Below, piece by piece: positions 24,001 through 30,000 of a stretch of 43,127 bases of DNA. This DNA comes from a virus (Duplodnaviria > Heunggongvirae > Uroviricota > Caudoviricetes). A program made the position numbers. The stretch lies in IMG/VR virus record IMGVR_UViG_2562617113_000019; one strand, 5' to 3'. Numbering within the stretch: the stretch's first letter is position 1; every line of letters starts with the position of its first letter.

Positions 24001-27000
24001 GCTGCTGATGCTGTTTTATGCCTTTGCACCACTCCGTCATCTTTATGGTCATCCGTTACCGGCTAACTGGCTGGTGGTGGGTGCCAATCTGCTGTTCTGT
24101 GTGCTGGTGATATGCGCACGCGGAAACGTCTCGAAACTCTTTTCATTACGAAGGCACTGATATGAAGTCGAAAGATGAAATTTTTGACGAAGTTCTGGGA
24201 AAAGAGGGAGGTTACGTTAACCATCCTGATGATAAAGGTGGGCCGACAAAGTGGGGAATTACTGAAAAAGTTGCCAGGGCGCATGGATACCTGGGGGATA
24301 TACGTAACCTGACGCGCGGGCAGGCGCTGGAAATTCTTGAGGCGGACTACTGGTACGGACCACGTTTTGACCAGGTGGCAAACCTGTCTCCGGATATTGC
24401 CGCAGAACTGTGTGATACCGGCGTAAACATGGGGCCGTCGGTAGCATCAAAAATGCTTCAGCGCTGGCTGAATGTGTTTAATCAAAAGGGGACGTTATAT
24501 CCGGATATGGATGTCGATGGTCGTATCGGGCCACGCACCATTAATGCGTTACGCGCCTATCTGTCGAAACGTGGCGGGGATGGCGAACTGGTGATGCTGA
24601 CCGCGCTGAACTGTACCCAGGGCGAACTCTATCTGGAGCTGGCAGAGAAGCGAGAAGCCAACCAGTCATTTGTCTACGGCTGGCTGAAACAACGCGTCAT
24701 TGTATAGCTGGATTTAGATAGATTATAAAAAATCACCTTTAATAATATTTTTTAAATGGATAGGGTGTTGTGAAAAATTAAAATGATTAAGCATGTATTG
24801 TTGTTTTTTGTTTTTATATCATTTTCTGTCTCAGCAAACGATTTCTTTAGAGCAGACTCCAGAACACCAGATGAAATAAGACGTGCGGGAGGGCTTTTAC
24901 CAAGAGGGCAGCAGGAGGCTTATGAGCGCGGAACTCCAATTAACATCAATCTGTATGAGCATGCTCGCGGAACAGTAACGGGGAACACTAGATATAACGA
25001 TGGGTATGTATCTACAACTACAACTTTGAGACAGGCTCATTTAATCGGGCAGAATATACTTGGCAGTTATAATGAATATTACATATATGTAGTTGCACCA
25101 GCACCCAATTTATTTGATGTGAATGGTGTGTTAGGGCGGTATAGTCCATATCCCAGTGAAAATGAATTTGCTGCATTAGGAGGGATTCCCTTATCACAAA
25201 TTATAGGCTGGTATAGAGTATCTTTTGGTGCGATAGAAGGGGGAATGCAGCGAAACAGGCATTACAGAGGAGATTTATTTCAAGGCTTATCGGTTGCCCC
25301 TAATCATGATGGCTATCATCTCGCAGGATTTCCAGAGGGTTTTGCTGCATGGCGAGAGCTGCCATGGAGTGCATTTGCTCCGGAACAGTGCGAGCAAGAT
25401 TACATGGTTAGAAATTTAGATGCCTGCGATTCTTATACAAATATATTATCTCAAAATGATTTGGTCGCTTTTAAAAGATTTATGCGAATTCGTTCTTCTC
25501 TTATGATTTTACAAAGTATTGAGGATGATTTACAAAACAATGAAAATAAAGATGAACTTTAAAAAGTCAATTGCGTTGTTGTTTATTGCCTTAAATATTG
25601 CATCACTACCAACATATGCTGGCGTAAGTAAAACTTTTAAGGATAAATGCGCTTCGACTACGGCAAAACTTGTACAGAGTGTTCAGTTGGTAAATATCTC
25701 GTCTGATGTAAATAAGGACAGTAAGGGAATTTATATATCAAGCTCAGCAGGAAAAACATGGTTTATTCCGGGGGGGCAGTATTACCCTGATAACTATCTA
25801 AGTAATGAAATGAGAAAAATAGCAATGGCTGCAGTTCTTTCTAACGTAAGGGTAAATCTATGTGCGAGTGAAGCATATACTCCGAATCATGTATGGGCAA
25901 TTGAATTGGCACCATAATAGTCATTGGTGTTTTAGTTTTTGTTTCATTCAATTTTATTCTGTATTTGATGTTATTAAGTTTGCCCCGTCCTGAATAACAT
26001 TGACACGTTCCTGATTTAAATCCGGAGAAAACTATGTGGAAACCTACCGGCGACCGAGTGCTCACCGTACTCATTGACAGCAAACCGCAGTATTCACGTA
26101 TTGAAACTAACGGTAAGGACGTTCGTCTGGTTCGCAAGTAACTTGCATTACAGCAGCCCTTCAGCGAGGGGCTGCGATAATGCCAGGCTCACTAACAGCA
26201 CCCGCCGCGCACCCAGCGCACTGGCTGATGGTGAGCTTTTTTATTCATAAAGTGAGGCTGTATGAGCGAGAAATTGAAGATCGTCTATCGCCCGTTACAA
26301 AAACTGTCTCCATATGCGCATAACGCCAGGACCCACAGCCCTGAGCAGGTGGCTCAACTGGTAGAAAGCATTAAGCAATTTGGCTGGACTAATCCAGTGC
26401 TGATTGACGAAAAGGGCGAAATTATTGCTGGTCACGGTCGCGTTATGGCGGCTGAAGTGCTCAAAATGGATTCCGTTCCGGTCATTGTTTTGTCTGGCCT
26501 GAAGGAGGATCAGAAAAAGGCGTATCGCCTGGCAGATAATCGTCTGCCGCTTAACGCTGGCTGGGATGAAGAGCTGTTACGGATGGAACTTTCAGAGTTA
26601 ATCAATGCTGATTTTGATATCTCCCTGACAGGATTCAGCCCAACAGAAATTGACGAACTGTTGATGGAAGTTTTGCCGGGCACCGGAACTGAGGAGGAGC
26701 CGTACACGACGAAAATTGATACGCCTGTTTATGAGCCGTCAGGCGATAAACCGGATATCGGCGAACTGTACGACGATACGAAAACTCAGGAGCTGGTCAG
26801 CCGGATACGTTCGGCGTCCCTTGATCCTGATATCGAAAAATTCCTCCTGTGTGCAGCAGAACGTCACACGGTGTTTGATTTCAGCAGAATTGCGGACTAT
26901 TACGTTCACGCCCCCGCTGAAATTCAGCATCTTTTTGAGGAGTCGGCGTTGGTGATCATTGATTATCAGCAGGCCATTGAAAATGGATTTGTCCGGATGA

Positions 27001-30000
27001 CGCAACGCATGGTGGAGATCATGCACGGCGGGGAGGAGGAATATGCGTGATGATTTTTGCGCCTTTATTCTGACTCACGGGCGACCGGACAAAGTTCTGA
27101 CTTACCGGACATTACGTCGAGCTGGCTATACCGGTAAAATTTTTATCGTCGTTGATGATGAAGATAAAACCCGGCATCAGTACATAGCTGAATTTGGTAA
27201 ACAGGTGTTGGTGTTTTCTAAAGCCGATATCGCCAGTCGTTTTGACGAAGCCGATAATTTCGGTGACCGTCGCTCAATTTTTTACGCACGTAATGCCTGC
27301 TTCGACCTGGCAAAACAGGTCAGGTGTAAATACTTCATTCAGTTCGATGATGATTATCATGAGTTCCAGTTTCGGGTGGATCACAACTATGACCAGGCCT
27401 ATTTTCCGATAAGGAAACTGGACGCAATCCTTTCTGAAATGCTGGCGTATTACGAATCAATTCCTGCGCTTTCCATCGCTATGTCGCAGGGCGGGGATTT
27501 TCTTGGTGACAATGGCGGCCATGCTTCATGGGTGAAACGCAAGGCAATGAACAGCTTTATCTGTTCGGTTGAGCGACCGTTCTCATTCATGGGGCGCATT
27601 AACGAGGATGTGAATACTTACACGAATCTCGGTCGCCGTGGTGAATTGTTTATGACGATTGGTGCTGTCCAGTTGGGACAGAAACAGACGCAGAAAAACA
27701 GCGGCGGAATGACCGAGCTGTATCTGGATTCCGGAACCTACGTTAAAAGTTTTTACTCCGTCATGTATGCGCCCTCGTGCGTAAAAATCTCACTGATGGG
27801 GGCCAGCCATAAACGCATTCACCATCAGGTCACCTGGAACAACGCTGCAGTAAAAATCCTTAACGAAAAATACAGGAAGAAGACACCCTGCATACCAATG
27901 GGGGTGACAAATGATTCCGTATTCGAAAGTCGAGTCTCTGGCTGCGTGCCGGATGACCGCACAACAAATCGCTGATGTTCTGGATGTTGATCTGAACCGA
28001 CTGAAAGAAAATCGGGAAGCAATGACAAATTTTTACGCATCCATCCGTAAGGGCAGAGCGAAAGGTGAAGCCGAGCTACGAGCCGCATTGTTTAAGCTTG
28101 CCAGAAAAGGGGATGCCTTTGCTCTGCGTGAGTTACTCAGGGTGGATAAAAATCAGGACTAACTGATGAACAGACCGGACTGGGGGGCGTTGCAGCAGGA
28201 ATATATTGCTGAATACACCCGTTCCGGTATATCTCCGGTTGCATGGTGTGAAGCAAGGGGACTGAATTACGCAACAGCCCGTCGTTACATCAAAAAACCT
28301 CCGAAAAATGCGCAGACAGAAGTGCGCAAAACTGCGCAAAAAAGTGCGCAGAAAAAATCTGCGCAGACTGCGCAAAAGCGGAACAGAAAATCTCAGAAAA
28401 AAAAGACGGTATCCGATGCCTTCCTGATTAAGAGTGGCGCGGAGGAGATTTCATTCTGTCCCGATGAATTCGGCATTTCTGACCAGCAGGCAAAATTCGC
28501 CATGCTGGTTGCTCAGGGTAAAAAGCCGACAGAGGCATACCGACTGGCCGGTTATGAAGGGCAAGGTGCGACAGCTAACAGCAACGCCAGTCGTATGCTT
28601 AGAAATGCCAGGGTTTTTCGTGCCATCAGCTACTTCCGCAATCAGTACCAGAAACGCTATACCGCAGACCTGGATTTACTGGTGAGTCAGTTGATGGCCA
28701 TTGTTCAGGCCGACCCCAATCAGTTGGCACAATTTCGCCGTGTTAACTGCCGTTATTGCTGGGGCGAGAATCACCTCTACCAGTGGCGCGATATAGCAGA
28801 ATTCGACAAGGCAGCGGCACAGGCCTCCAGAGATGGCAAACCTGAACCTGAATATGGTGGCCTCGGGTTTGTTGATAACGCCATACCCAATTCGGACTGC
28901 CCGAAGTGCTGCGGTGAGGGAACAGGGCAGCTTTATATGGCCGATACCACTCTGCTTGATGGGGATGTACGGCAATTATATGCAGGGGCAAAGCTCGGAA
29001 AATTCGGTGTTGAGATCCTGCAGGAGAATAAAGCTGCCGCCCGGCGTGAATTGTTGCGTTTGCTTTCTGCTGGCGGGGCATTATGTGCAGATAAGCGGCT
29101 ACAGGAACTGGAAATTGAGCGGCGCAGAATGGAAAACCAGAAGCTGCGCAAAGAGATCGAAACGGTGGAGGGTAATGAACATCCCCTGCCTGTGGCGATC
29201 AATATTAATGTAGTTGATGCCAGGGTAAGGAGTGATGAAGATGATCTCTCCGACGCTTAATGTGCCTCAGGCGCGATTTCTTTCCATGCCTCATAAATTT
29301 AAAGCCTATATTGCTGGTTTTGGCTCGGGCAAAACATGGGTGGGGTGTGGCGGCATATGCAAGGGGATTTGGGAGCATCCTGGTATAAATCAGGGATATT
29401 TTGCGCCAACGTATCCCCAAATACGCGATATTTTTTACCCTACAGTGGAAGAAGTTGCTGCTGACTGGGGATTGAACGTAAAAATTAATGAGGGAAATAA
29501 AGAGGTTCATTTTTATTACGGACGCCAGTATCGGGGAACCACCATCTGCAGATCGATGGAGAAGCCGCAAACGATCGTCGGTTTCAAAATTGGTAATGCG
29601 CTGGTGGATGAACTGGACATTTTGCCGAAGGAAAAAGCCAGAACTGCGTGGCGCAAGATAATTGCGCGTATGCGTTATAAGGTTGATGGACTTCGCAACG
29701 GTATTGACGTTACAACCACGCCAGAAGGATTCAAATTTGTCTACGAGCAGTTTGTTAAAGCCGTGCGTGAAAAAACAGAGTTGTCCTCACTGTATGGTCT
29801 GGTGCAGGCATCTACTTTCGATAATGAAAAGAACCTGCCAGCAGATTACATTCCTTCGCTTCTTGAATCATACCCTCCAGAGCTGATTAAAGCCTATCTT
29901 CGTGGACAGTTTACGAACCTGACAAGTGGTACTGTTTACCATCAGTTTGACCGGCAACTGAATAATTGCGAAGAAGTGGAGCAGCCTGGGGAGCCGATTT

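What the first reader, a model, noticed from the sequence alone, without database searches (positions are those of the whole stretch)
26262..27975. ParB-like protein plus DxD-motif (GT-A-like) protein pair just upstream of the packaging genes: candidate DNA-modification or anti-restriction module
The 262-aa protein has the ParB/Srx N-domain that phages usually fuse to a DNA methyltransferase. Here that domain is followed by a different ~120-aa domain: TKIDTPVYEPSGDKPDIGELYDD...FLLCAAERHTVFDFSRIADYY.

The protein is translationally coupled (8-nt overlap) to a 310-aa protein. That partner has an N-terminal beta-alpha pattern and an IQFDDDY motif, which suggest a nucleotide-sugar-dependent transferase.

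ParB-like and glycosyltransferase pairings have been linked computationally to DNA base hypermodification. Alternatively, the ParB-like protein could assist terminase, as HNH or ParB nucleases do in some phages.
Basis: inference. Interest (0 to 1): 0.55.

Follow-up and report, generated by a model that had tools for sequence, protein, structure and literature searches.

The report
ParB-coupled phage DNA glycosyltransferase pair
Two overlapping late genes of this E. coli prophage encode a sugar-transferring enzyme of a phage DNA-glycosylating family and a ParB-like helper protein; the pair always travels together just ahead of the DNA-packaging genes, yet nothing in the phage makes the modified base such enzymes normally decorate.

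Summary
ORF 26262-27050 (262 aa) and ORF 27043-27975 (310 aa) overlap by 8 nt, with a GGAGGAGG ribosome-binding site before the second start.

**The two proteins**
- The 262-aa protein has a ParB/Srx N-domain whose GERR box reads GHGR. A disordered linker and a ~110-aa C-domain follow; the C-domain matches no Pfam or PDB entry.

**Main new results**
- The C-domain is the constant partner of this glycosyltransferase. They are adjacent in every locus examined (100 seeded on the enzyme, 79 on the C-domain). These span many bacterial phyla, cultured phages and a haloarchaeal virus.
- Vibrio jumbo phages carry the C-domain without ParB-N. One metagenomic protein fuses a glycosyltransferase, ParB-N and the C-domain.
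- The pair nearly always sits directly upstream of the terminase genes.
- No dioxygenase, thymidylate-synthase-like enzyme or C5-methyltransferase is found in this prophage or in the complete genome of Lactobacillus phage c5.

**Reading**
Most likely this is a two-subunit, packaging-coupled DNA glycosylation module. Its acceptor base is unknown. It occurs in about 16% of complete E. coli genomes and has not been studied experimentally.

The parts
26262..27050 (+). Accessory subunit gene (262 aa; annotated ynaK / 'ParB/Srx family N-terminal domain-containing protein' in RefSeq)
   Evidence: ORF. phrog_620 E 2e-86 over the full length. 100% identical to E. coli NADC1036, where it is annotated ynaK. 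dN/dS about 0.11-0.13 against E. coli relatives.
26262..26666 (+). ParB/Srx (ParB-CTPase fold) N-domain, aa 1-135. Box II reads IIAGHGR instead of GERR, box I NAR instead of QPR, and box III ADN.
26694..26771 (+). Conserved linker motif (aa 145-170: PYTTKIDTPVYEPS..P..ELYD), predicted disordered
   Evidence: Y, P, Y and P are invariant and [ST], K and I nearly invariant across bacteria, an archaeal virus and Vibrio jumbo phages. pLDDT is about 30 in the AF2 model.
26772..27026 (+). Helical glycosyltransferase-partner domain (aa 171-255: FLxxAAxRH..F..IAxYY.H..Q.LFExSALVIIDYxxAIExGF), not in Pfam
   Evidence: No Pfam or PDB sequence match. 1184 representative proteins carry the linker-plus-domain query used in the search, which lies at the C-terminus in nearly all of the 150 listed. 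A TAGT gene lies downstream in 79 of 79 loci seeded on this domain. It stands alone, without ParB-N, upstream of TAGT in Vibrio jumbo phages.
27032..27039 (+). Shine-Dalgarno GGAGGAGG for the glycosyltransferase gene, inside the 3' end of the ParB-like gene
   Evidence: Read directly from the sequence.
27043..27975 (+). GT-A glycosyltransferase of the TAGT family (310 aa; 'GREB1-related protein' in RefSeq). Catalytic motif R14 ... D102-D103-D104 ... E188-D189. The C-terminal ~22 aa is an extension absent from most homologues.
27911..28162 (+). 83-aa ORF overlapping the GT 3' end by 65 nt; resembles part of a terminase small subunit (context)
   Evidence: phrog_309 E 2.5e-22.
28166..29260 (+). 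Terminase small subunit (context: the conserved downstream neighbour of the module)
   Evidence: Pfam Terminase_2 and phrog_51.
29232..30542 (+). Terminase large subunit (context)
   Evidence: Pfam Terminase_6N and Terminase_6C.

Best explanation
The two genes encode a two-subunit, late-expressed DNA glycosylation module.

Shown here:
- The 310-aa protein is a GT-A, DxD-type, nucleotide-sugar-dependent transferase of the TAGT family (PF20691).
- The 262-aa protein has a ParB/Srx NTP-binding-type N-domain, a disordered linker with a conserved Y-[ST]-x-K-I-x-x-P-x-Y-x-P motif, and a helical ~85-aa domain.
- The linker plus helical domain is the invariable genomic partner of this TAGT subfamily.

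Inferred:
- The linker and C-domain bind and complete or activate the transferase.
- The ParB-type N-domain gives NTP-gated engagement of double-stranded DNA. This is the role ParB-like partners play for the DpdA transglycosylase (DpdB) and for ParB-dependent phage thymine dioxygenases (ParB176).
- The pair is translationally coupled and sits immediately before the terminase genes in the late operon. It would therefore act on replicated concatemeric DNA just before or during packaging, so virion DNA enters the next host carrying sugar adducts that block restriction or other nucleic-acid-targeting defences.

Not determined: the sugar donor and the acceptor. No enzyme that makes 5-hydroxymethyl-pyrimidines is encoded, so the acceptor is either a canonical or host-modified base or something not yet recognised.

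The confidence of 0.55 refers to DNA being the acceptor. That the pair is a TAGT enzyme with an obligate ParB-like partner is close to certain.
For: Identity of the enzyme:
- Pfam TAGT E 4.6e-34.
- Invariant R14, DDD102-104 and ED188-189. These match the R...DDD...EDY/F motif reported for DNA-modifying phage GT-A enzymes and the base-J glucosyltransferase (bioRxiv 10.1101/2023.12.21.572611).
- The T2/T6 beta-glucosyl-HMC-alpha-GT is in the same Pfam family.

Obligate pairing:
- ParB(N+C) lies directly upstream of TAGT in 78 of 78 IMG/VR loci and 22 of 22 species-representative genome loci. The latter include Enterobacterales, Bacteroides, Desulfovibrionaceae, Prosthecochloris, Saccharibacteria, Thiotrichales and Hyphomonadaceae.
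- Seeding on the C-domain instead gives a downstream TAGT in 79 of 79 loci.
- The pair is also present in Lactobacillus phage c5 and the archaeal virus HHTV-2.

The C-domain is the core partner:
- It occurs alone (139 aa) upstream of TAGT in Vibrio jumbo phages.
- In 41 non-redundant pairs, mean pairwise identity is 0.55 for TAGT, 0.52 for the C-domain and 0.37 for the N-domain. The identity-matrix correlation is 0.68 for TAGT with C and 0.44 for TAGT with N.
- A 534-aa protein fusing a TAGT-like GT, ParB-N and the C-domain occurs on three independent contigs. On the one contig with enough flank (16.6 kb) a second full TAGT and TerL follow; on the two short contigs the downstream gene is cut off.

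Link to packaging:
- The terminase genes follow immediately whatever the terminase family is.

Signs of glycan-building logic in relatives:
- A second TAGT and a TAGT::SAM-methyltransferase fusion (L100), and an inserted histidine-phosphatase + cytidylyltransferase gene between ParB and TAGT (L170, L176, L186).

Precedents for ParB-like partners of DNA-base-modifying enzymes:
- PMC13229309 and PMC10164549.
- AF2 gives the same architecture as ParB176: nucleotide-binding domain, helices, unstructured linker, C-terminal domain.

The genes are functional, not relics: dN/dS is about 0.05-0.14.
Against: - No known acceptor-generating enzyme is present. Pfam found no TET_JBP, thymidylate-synthase-like or C5-MTase domain in the ORFs scanned: most ORFs of at least ~85 aa between 1 and 30.5 kb of the window. 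RefSeq annotates only tail genes in the prophage beyond the window, and phmmer with E. coli ThyA found no homologue anywhere in the window. Neither annotation nor Pfam finds one in the complete 31.8-kb genome of phage c5. No TET_JBP or thymidylate synthase appears among the 25 commonest of 68 Pfam families hit by 135 neighbour ORFs from 15 diverse loci.
- Canonical DNA offers no hydroxyl group for O-glycosylation.
- The ParB box II lacks the catalytic Glu (GERR becomes GHGR), and no DNA-binding HTH was detected.
- The C-domain and the C-terminal third of the GT are modelled with low confidence. No complex model could be run.
- No nucleoside or restriction data exist for any phage carrying the pair, as far as the literature searches showed.
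Confidence: 0.55

Rival explanations
1. The transferase still needs a 5-hydroxymethyl-pyrimidine (or sugar-hm-pyrimidine) acceptor, as its characterised relatives do. In this prophage it therefore does not modify the phage's own DNA. It would act on DNA of other, hypermodified phages (superinfection interference), or it would be idle.
For: - All characterised PF20691 or GT-A DNA transferases act on hmC, hmU or glucosyl-hmC.
- The Vibrio jumbo phage carrying the C-domain-only version does encode a ThyA-family protein (E 1e-32). It could be a dUMP hydroxymethylase.
- The idea that prophage GTs hypermodify invading genomes is raised in bioRxiv 10.1101/2023.12.21.572611.
Against: - The genes lie in the late operon, coupled to terminase, rather than in the lysogen-expressed regions where this prophage keeps its defence genes (SieB, PD-T4-7, AbiH, SIR2).
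- The pair is also present in a phage with no annotated integrase and a small complete genome (c5) that has no hm-pathway.
- Strong purifying selection and 100% linkage to the packaging genes across phyla argue against idleness.
- No PADLOC match for the GT.
Confidence: 0.15
2. The acceptor is a protein, not DNA. The GT would glycosylate the conserved Tyr/Ser/Thr of its partner's linker (glycogenin-like self-priming), or a virion or packaging protein. The animal relative GREB1 O-GlcNAcylates a protein.
For: - The linker motif Y-[ST]-x-K-I-x-x-P-x-Y-x-P is invariant or nearly so from E. coli prophages to a haloarchaeal virus, and is predicted disordered, as substrate peptides are.
- GREB1 is a protein glycosyltransferase (PMC7968844 abstract).
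- One related phage has four further GT2 genes next to its capsid gene.
Against: - Terminase, portal and capsid families differ among the phages that carry the pair, so no structural protein is a universal acceptor.
- The ParB/Srx N-domain is most similar to those fused to DNA methyltransferases.
- The family's characterised phage members act on DNA.
Confidence: 0.15
3. The ParB-like protein is primarily a packaging factor: a nuclease or DNA-loading helper for terminase, like the HNH proteins of HK97-type phages. The transferase would be an unrelated passenger.
For: - The pair is inserted between HNH/cos and TerS in c5 and in metagenomic HK97-type phages.
- A 65%-identical stand-alone ParB-N gene lies directly upstream of TerS/TerL in E. 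coli phage vB_EcoM-613R2, with no GT.
Against: - The part of the protein that is constant is the C-domain, and it never occurs without the GT in 79 of 79 loci.
- It persists without ParB-N in Vibrio jumbo phages, where the neighbours are replication genes rather than terminase.
- The GT catalytic residues are invariant.
- A GT::ParB::C-domain fusion exists.
Confidence: 0.07
4. The GT modifies a cell-envelope polymer, as the prophage GT-A enzyme TarP does for wall teichoic acid, for superinfection exclusion.
Against: - The same pair, at 40-58% identity, occurs in phages of Gram-negative, Gram-positive, actinobacterial and haloarchaeal hosts whose envelopes share no polymer.
- No Pfam family other than TAGT matches the protein, and no membrane or secretion feature was looked for or noted.
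- It is linked to a ParB-type protein and to terminase rather than to Gtr-type flippases.
Confidence: 0.03

Closest known systems
Phage GT-A DNA glycosyltransferases associated with C5-MT/5mYOX (TET) clusters (Burke 2021, PMC8256090; bioRxiv 10.1101/2023.12.21.572611)
   Same: - Same Pfam family (PF20691) and GT-A fold.
- The R...DDD...ED motif is shared.
- Frequent neighbourhood of ParB-like and terminase genes, with post-replicative logic.
   Different: - No methyltransferase, dioxygenase or ThyS-like enzyme here or in related complete genomes.
- The enzyme is strictly paired with an unnamed partner domain.
- It belongs to the roughly 65% of 'orphan' GT contigs that those authors left unexplained.
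T2/T6 beta-glucosyl-HMC-alpha-glucosyltransferase
   Same: Assigned to PF20691. PHROG 842, which the window protein matches at E 6e-101, carries this name.
   Different: - The T-even enzyme adds a second glucose to glucosyl-hmC made through a pre-replicative dCMP hydroxymethylase pathway.
- The papers read here describe it among nucleotide-metabolism and other GT genes and do not mention a ParB-like partner.
- It is too distant to appear in a tblastn search at E 1e-5.
ParB-dependent phage thymine dioxygenases (5mYOX176/ParB176; O'Toole 2026, PMC13229309)
   Same: - A small ParB-like protein (nucleotide-binding domain, short helices, ~50-aa unstructured linker, C-terminal domain, no HTH) is encoded next to a DNA-base-modifying enzyme and is needed for its action on dsDNA.
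- Cognate-pair specificity is reported there.
- Terminase often lies nearby.
   Different: - The client enzyme there is a dioxygenase, and those clusters carry kinases and amino-acid transferases rather than this GT.
- Their ParBs largely keep the CTP-binding and hydrolysis residues, whereas here GERR is GHGR.
DpdA/DpdB of the Dpd 7-deazaguanine system (PMC10164549)
   Same: A ParB-superfamily NTPase (DpdB) is required for a DNA-base-modifying enzyme to act on dsDNA.
   Different: - That is a bacterial restriction-modification system with transglycosylase chemistry (base exchange), not sugar addition.
- No sequence similarity beyond the fold was shown here.
ParB-N::DNA methyltransferase fusions of prophages (phrog_498; PADLOC MTase_II PDLC03229; Kaljevic 2025, PMC12704722)
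   Same: The N-domain is homologous (30-55% identity; E 6e-51 to phrog_498). These fusions are reported as strongly enriched in prophages.
   Different: - There the ParB domain is covalently fused to the modifying enzyme, and the adduct is a methyl group.
- Here the enzyme is a separate polypeptide recruited, by inference, through an extra domain.
Chromosomal/plasmid ParB, Noc, KorB (CTP-dependent DNA clamps)
   Same: ParB/Srx fold. Arg of box I, last Arg of box II and Asn of box III are conserved.
   Different: - No HTH/parS-binding domain and no ParA partner were detected.
- The catalytic Glu is replaced by His.
- The NCBIfam partition-protein score is far below its cutoff (35.8 against 58.45).
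Kinetoplastid base-J glucosyltransferase (JGT) and animal GREB1
   Same: Distant members of the same GT-A lineage. RefSeq names the window protein 'GREB1-related protein'.
   Different: - They are eukaryotic.
- JGT acts on hmU made by JBP, and GREB1 acts on a protein.
- Neither is described with a ParB-like partner in the papers read here.

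Membership tests
TAGT (PF20691) GT-A DNA glycosyltransferases | Match to the family profile above the curated threshold | tested here: met
   118.6 bits against a cutoff of 27.5, E 4.6e-34, residues 8-222. phrog_842 E 6e-101. BFVD top hits are all TAGT.
TAGT (PF20691) GT-A DNA glycosyltransferases | GT-A Rossmann-like fold | tested here: met
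TAGT (PF20691) GT-A DNA glycosyltransferases | Catalytic R ... DDD ... ED(Y/F) motif | tested here: met
   R14, D102, D103, D104, E188 and D189 are invariant in 31 sequences. The third position is V, not Y/F. The motif is as described.
TAGT (PF20691) GT-A DNA glycosyltransferases | Co-encoded source of the hydroxymethyl-pyrimidine acceptor (5mYOX/TET, or ThyS-like hydroxymethylase, with or without a C5-MTase) | tested here: not met
   None found by Pfam in the window ORFs scanned, by annotation of the rest of the prophage, by phmmer with ThyA over the whole window, in the complete phage c5 genome or among the 25 commonest of 68 Pfam families in 135 neighbour ORFs. The unassigned 341-aa window ORF is the defence protein PD-T4-7; the 290-aa ORF has only a weak LeoBC match.
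TAGT (PF20691) GT-A DNA glycosyltransferases | Transfer of a sugar from an NDP-sugar to a base in DNA | not testable with these tools
   Needs nucleoside LC-MS/MS or an in vitro assay.
ParB/Srx (ParB-CTPase fold) proteins | ParB N-terminal domain fold and profile match | tested here: met
ParB/Srx (ParB-CTPase fold) proteins | Canonical CTP-binding and hydrolysis boxes (QxR, GERRxR, ENxxR) | tested here: inconclusive
   The phosphate-contacting Arg, Arg and Asn equivalents are kept (R23, R60, N93). Q becomes N, the catalytic E becomes H58 and the first R becomes G59. Such variants can bind ATP, GTP or CTP (PMC12704722).
Partition ParB (ParABS) | HTH parS-binding domain, ParA partner, parS sites | tested here: not met
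   No HTH or ParA found by Pfam. NCBIfam parB_part scores 35.8 against a cutoff of 58.45. No notable repeats in or around the genes.
ParB-like activator + DNA-base-modifying enzyme pairs (ParB176/5mYOX176, DpdB/DpdA) | Adjacent, co-oriented, co-inherited cognate genes | tested here: met
   The two genes are adjacent in every locus examined from either side (100 seeded on TAGT, 79 on the C-domain). There is an 8-nt overlap here, and three loci have one inserted gene.
ParB-like activator + DNA-base-modifying enzyme pairs (ParB176/5mYOX176, DpdB/DpdA) | Nucleotide-binding domain, unstructured linker, C-terminal domain; no DNA-binding domain | tested here: met
   AF2 secondary structure and pLDDT profile, compared with the description of ParB176.
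ParB-like activator + DNA-base-modifying enzyme pairs (ParB176/5mYOX176, DpdB/DpdA) | Enzyme activity on dsDNA depends on the ParB-like partner | not testable with these tools
   Indirect support only: a fusion protein on three contigs and co-variation.
ParB-N::DNA methyltransferase fusions | Methyltransferase domain fused to ParB-N | tested here: not met
   Only the N-terminal ~140 residues match (phrog_498 positions 31-171 of 633; PDLC03229 positions 11-150 of 436). No MTase domain.

The most novel reading that the evidence does not exclude
The ParB-coupled TAGT pair installs a sugar directly on a canonical (or merely methylated) base of double-stranded phage DNA, with no hydroxymethyl handle. 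The unnamed partner domain would supply base access or acceptor activation. That would be a new kind of DNA modification chemistry. It would be present in about one in six sequenced E. coli genomes and in phages of many bacterial phyla and of haloarchaea. It could also account for part of the roughly 65% of 'orphan' phage glycosyltransferase contigs.
Probability: 0.3. Interest if true: 0.9.

Novelty: new variant of a known kind. Interest (0 to 1): 0.6.

Why it matters
Phage DNA glycosylation is known only as decoration of hydroxymethyl- or hydroxy-pyrimidines, which dedicated enzymes make first.

This module is a self-contained two-gene unit that lacks that first step. It is nevertheless under strong purifying selection, welded to the packaging genes, and spread from E. 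coli prophages to a haloarchaeal virus.

- If it modifies DNA, it defines a new acceptor chemistry and a third experimentally approachable case of a ParB-fold protein working as a partner of a DNA-modifying enzyme.
- If it does not, a large share of 'DNA glycosyltransferase' annotations in viromes is misleading.

Either answer is cheap to obtain. The pair sits in inducible E. coli prophages, phages carrying it have already been isolated (ON4705xx records), and a remnant of the ParB-like gene (ynaK) lies in the Rac prophage of K-12-type strains. It also bears on how temperate phages that carry toxin genes (here LT-II and a pertussis-like toxin) evade restriction when they spread between strains.

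Tried and rejected
- Hidden acceptor-making enzyme. I looked with Pfam scans of most window ORFs of at least ~85 aa up to 30.5 kb, PADLOC on the unassigned ORFs, RefSeq annotation of the remaining prophage, phmmer with E. coli ThyA against the window and related loci, a Pfam scan of phage c5 hypothetical proteins and a pooled Pfam scan of 135 neighbour ORFs. Nothing was found. The pooled scan lists only the 25 commonest of 68 families, so a single rare occurrence cannot be excluded.
- ParB-binding repeats or parS-like sites in and around the genes. Only short, chance-level repeats were found. The promoter and terminator scans were uninformative.
- Literature. 'ynaK' returned mostly irrelevant hits and nothing usable. 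Iyer et al. 2013, the paper that defined TAGT, is not held, so its statements are cited only second-hand through. No paper was found reporting DNA analysis of a phage with this pair.
- Partition function, cell-envelope glycosylation and a prophage defence role were considered and judged unlikely (see the rival explanations).
- Whether the Vibrio phage ThyA-like protein is a thymidylate synthase or a dUMP hydroxymethylase could not be decided from the alignment.

Full report
**1. What is there.**
The window is 100% identical over the finding to the chromosome of bovine E. coli NADC1036. It is a lambdoid prophage at the Rac position: integrase at 1-1236, RecE/RecT, a replication module, Q, lysis genes, terminase, head and tail genes.

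The two ORFs of the finding exist as stated: 26262-27050 (262 aa) and 27043-27975 (310 aa), both on the + strand. The second start codon lies 8 nt inside the first gene and is preceded by GGAGGAGG. Terminase small and large subunit genes follow (28166-29260 and 29232-30542). RefSeq calls the first gene ynaK ('ParB/Srx family N-terminal domain-containing protein') and the second 'GREB1-related protein'.

**2. The 310-aa protein.**
- It matches Pfam PF20691, TET-Associated Glycosyltransferase (E 4.6e-34, residues 8-222), and PHROG 842 (E 6e-101).
- An AlphaFold model built on 31 homologues has pLDDT above 90 over most of residues 1-140. The model is weak for residues ~220-310.
This is the R...DDD...ED motif described for DNA-modifying phage GT-A enzymes and the base-J glucosyltransferase.
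- The characterised T2/T6 beta-glucosyl-HMC-alpha-glucosyltransferase is assigned to the same Pfam family.

**3. The 262-aa protein.**
- Aligned to Noc/ParB, box II reads IIAGHGR instead of IIAGERR, box I NAR instead of QPR, and box III ADN. The phosphate-binding Arg/Arg/Asn are kept and the catalytic Glu is not.
- The domain is 30-55% identical to the N-termini of many phage DNA methyltransferases. It matches only the N-terminal part of MTase profiles.
- After two short helices comes a linker predicted to be disordered, then a helical domain modelled with low confidence.
- No HTH, ParA or parS-like repeats were found.
- This architecture equals that described for ParB176, the activator of a phage thymine dioxygenase.

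**4. The key result: who is linked to whom.**
*Seeding on the glycosyltransferase.* In all 78 IMG/VR loci with enough flank, and in all 22 loci from one-genome-per-species bacterial genomes, a ParB(N+C) gene lies immediately upstream on the same strand. It usually overlaps the GT gene. The genome loci include Shigella, Pantoea, Serratia, Bacteroides, Dysgonomonas, Desulfovibrionaceae, Prosthecochloris, Saccharibacteria, Thiotrichales and Hyphomonadaceae.

*Seeding on the C-terminal domain.* This gives 79 of 79 loci with TAGT downstream.

*Cultured phages and range.* tblastn finds the glycosyltransferase in cultured phages of Lactobacillus, Nocardia, Vibrio and Porphyromonas. The pair itself was confirmed in Lactobacillus phages c5 and phi jlb1 and in the archaeal virus HHTV-2 (genes 21-22).

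*The C-domain stands alone in some phages.* In Vibrio jumbo phages the gene upstream of TAGT is only 139 aa. It corresponds to the linker plus C-domain alone (E 6e-42), with no ParB-N anywhere in the 191-kb genome.

*Family size and architecture.* An exhaustive search with the linker plus C-domain finds 1184 representative proteins. In nearly all of the 150 best listed, the domain lies at the C-terminal end. About one in six of those listed is shorter than 200 aa, and four such short proteins that were scanned lack any ParB_N match.

*Conservation.* Across 41 non-redundant pairs, mean pairwise identity is 0.55 (GT), 0.52 (C-domain) and 0.37 (N-domain). The GT's identity matrix correlates better with the C-domain's (r 0.68) than with the N-domain's (r 0.44).

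*A natural fusion.* A 534-aa protein joining a TAGT-like GT, ParB-N, the linker and the C-domain occurs on three independent metagenomic contigs. On the one contig with enough flank, a second TAGT and TerL follow.

*No known homologue.* The C-domain has no Pfam or PDB sequence relative.

ParB-N is a frequent but exchangeable add-on.

**5. Position.**
The pair lies directly upstream of the terminase genes here (Terminase_2/Terminase_6N). The same holds in HK97-type phages (HNH ... ParB-TAGT-TerS-TerL(PF03354)-portal-protease-capsid), in phage c5 (cos-ParB-TAGT-TerS-TerL), in the fusion-bearing phage and in most other loci. The terminase family varies while the position does not. The exceptions seen are the jumbo phages, where the neighbours are replication genes, and HHTV-2, where eight small genes separate the pair from TerL.

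**6. What is missing.**
Known TAGT-type enzymes decorate hmC, hmU or glucosyl-hmC, which a dioxygenase or a ThyS-like hydroxymethylase makes first.
- No such enzyme, and no C5-methyltransferase, is detectable in this prophage.
- Of the two ORFs that Pfam left unassigned, one is the defence protein PD-T4-7 and the other has only a weak LeoBC match. Both sit in a defence island with AbiH and a SIR2 protein.
- The complete 31.8-kb genome of phage c5 has none either.
- None appears among the commonest families in 135 neighbour ORFs from 15 distant loci.
- Only the Vibrio jumbo phage has a ThyA-family gene, and whether it is a synthase or a hydroxymethylase is undecided.
- The NEB survey of about 25,000 phage GT contigs found 65% without 5mYOX or ThyS and set them aside. 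This pair is a clear and very widespread representative of that unexplained class.

**7. Other hints.**
- Relatives add glycan-type accessories: a second TAGT and a TAGT fused to a class I SAM methyltransferase (L100), and a histidine-phosphatase + cytidylyltransferase gene inserted between ParB and TAGT in three phages. These suggest elaboration of a sugar adduct and phage supply of an activated donor.
- Both window genes are under purifying selection (dN/dS 0.05-0.14).
- The pair is present at >=80% coverage in 889 of 5426 complete E. coli genomes. K-12-type strains keep only the first ~85 codons of ynaK.

**8. Mechanism proposed.**
*Shown:* a GT-A/TAGT enzyme; a ParB/Srx-fold protein with an extra conserved domain; obligate genomic pairing; translational coupling; a late, terminase-adjacent position.

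*Inferred:*
- The linker and C-domain dock on the transferase, possibly ordering its conserved but poorly modelled C-terminal third.
- ParB-N provides NTP-gated engagement of dsDNA, as ParB-like partners do for DpdA (PMC10164549) and 5mYOX176 (PMC13229309).
- The complex glycosylates concatemeric DNA before packaging to protect it in the next host.

I put about 0.55 on DNA as the acceptor. The identity of the base is open.

**9. Rivals.**
- Dependence on foreign hm-DNA, or idleness: 0.15.
- A protein acceptor, including the partner's own conserved Tyr/Ser/Thr motif: 0.15.
- A packaging-helper role of the ParB part with an unrelated GT: 0.07. It is supported only by position and by a stand-alone ParB-N upstream of terminase in another E. 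coli phage.
- Envelope glycosylation: 0.03.

**10. Comparison and novelty.**
That ParB-type genes accompany phage DNA-modification clusters was already noted computationally (cited). The Pfam family exists and RefSeq annotates both genes, so the kind is known. The following appear to be new, as far as the held literature shows:
- the delineation of the partner domain;
- its exclusive linkage to this glycosyltransferase subfamily, with ParB-N optional;
- the natural fusion;
- the range, extending to an archaeal virus;
- the demonstration on complete genomes that the module stands alone without an acceptor-making enzyme.

The recent ParB-fold survey does not mention glycosyltransferases. I rate this a new variant of a known kind, with interest 0.6. 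The decisive experiments are simple and are listed separately.

Noticed in passing
window 21928-23179 and 24783-25917: The prophage carries two AB5-type toxin operons in its late region. One is a pertussis-toxin-S1-like A subunit (PF02917, E 6e-15) with a putative B subunit, just after the Q antiterminator. The other is type II heat-labile enterotoxin, LT-IIA (PF01375, E 3e-117) and LT-IIB (PF06453, E 1.5e-43), between the endolysin and the ParB-like gene.
   Followed up: partly
window 13092-18517: A defence island lies between the replication genes and the late regulatory genes (DUF1367, YbcO, Q): PD-T4-7 (13092-14117, PADLOC E 6e-141), AbiH (14529-15506), an ORF with a weak LeoBC match (15747-16619) and a SIR2-domain protein matching candidate system PDC-S25 (17009-18517, minus strand). 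SieB lies at 7494-7949.
   Followed up: partly
L170 2942-3895; L176 4323-5318; L186 4344-5312: In three IMG/VR phages a ~320-aa fusion of a histidine phosphatase (PF00300) and a cytidylyltransferase-like domain (PF01467, HxGH motif) is inserted between the ParB-like gene and TAGT. It could be a phage-encoded route to an activated sugar or polyol donor, for example a heptose- or glycerol-phosphate nucleotide.
   Followed up: partly
L100 2614-6161: A Hyphomonadaceae prophage has ParB(N+C), then a 564-aa TAGT fused to a class I SAM methyltransferase, then a second TAGT. This suggests a methylated disaccharide-type adduct.
   Followed up: partly
P0332; L194 214-1818; L195 26-1630: A single 534-aa polypeptide combines a TAGT-like GT, ParB-N, the conserved linker and the C-domain. 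It is seen on three contigs from different samples. On the 16.6-kb contig a second full TAGT and TerL follow; on the two short contigs the downstream gene is cut off.
   Followed up: yes
L105 17837-20316 (also L106): A metagenomic HK97-type phage with the ParB-TAGT pair also has three Glycos_transf_2 genes and a fourth with a faint GT2-type match, in a row downstream of the capsid gene. This could be virion or other glycosylation.
   Followed up: no
L192 28282-29175 (Vibrio phage phiTY18): The jumbo phage that has the C-domain-only partner encodes a ThyA-family protein (E 1e-32). It keeps the catalytic Cys and the PFN motif, but RR is replaced by RG. Whether it is a thymidylate synthase or a dUMP hydroxymethylase is undecided.
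   Followed up: partly
window 27911-28162: An 83-aa ORF resembling an internal part of a terminase small subunit (phrog_309) overlaps the 3' end of the GT gene by 65 nt. The GT here, and in close E. coli relatives, has a ~22-aa C-terminal extension absent from other homologues.
   Followed up: no
E. coli K-12-type genomes (hits H25-H29): Laboratory and K-12-like strains retain only the first ~230-254 nt of the ParB-like gene (ynaK), next to ydaY, in the Rac remnant. The classical strains have therefore lost the module.
   Followed up: no
L196 3495-6498 (Escherichia phage vB_EcoM-613R2): A 196-aa stand-alone ParB-N protein, 65% identical to the window's N-domain, sits directly upstream of a 183-aa ORF and TerL without any GT. 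A second ParB gene followed by a nuclease gene lies 3 kb upstream.
   Followed up: no
window 9830-11119: The replication-region protein combines DUF1376, a T5orf172/MUG113 (GIY-YIG-like) domain and a DnaT DNA-binding domain. This is an unusual fusion for a lambdoid O-like position.
   Followed up: no
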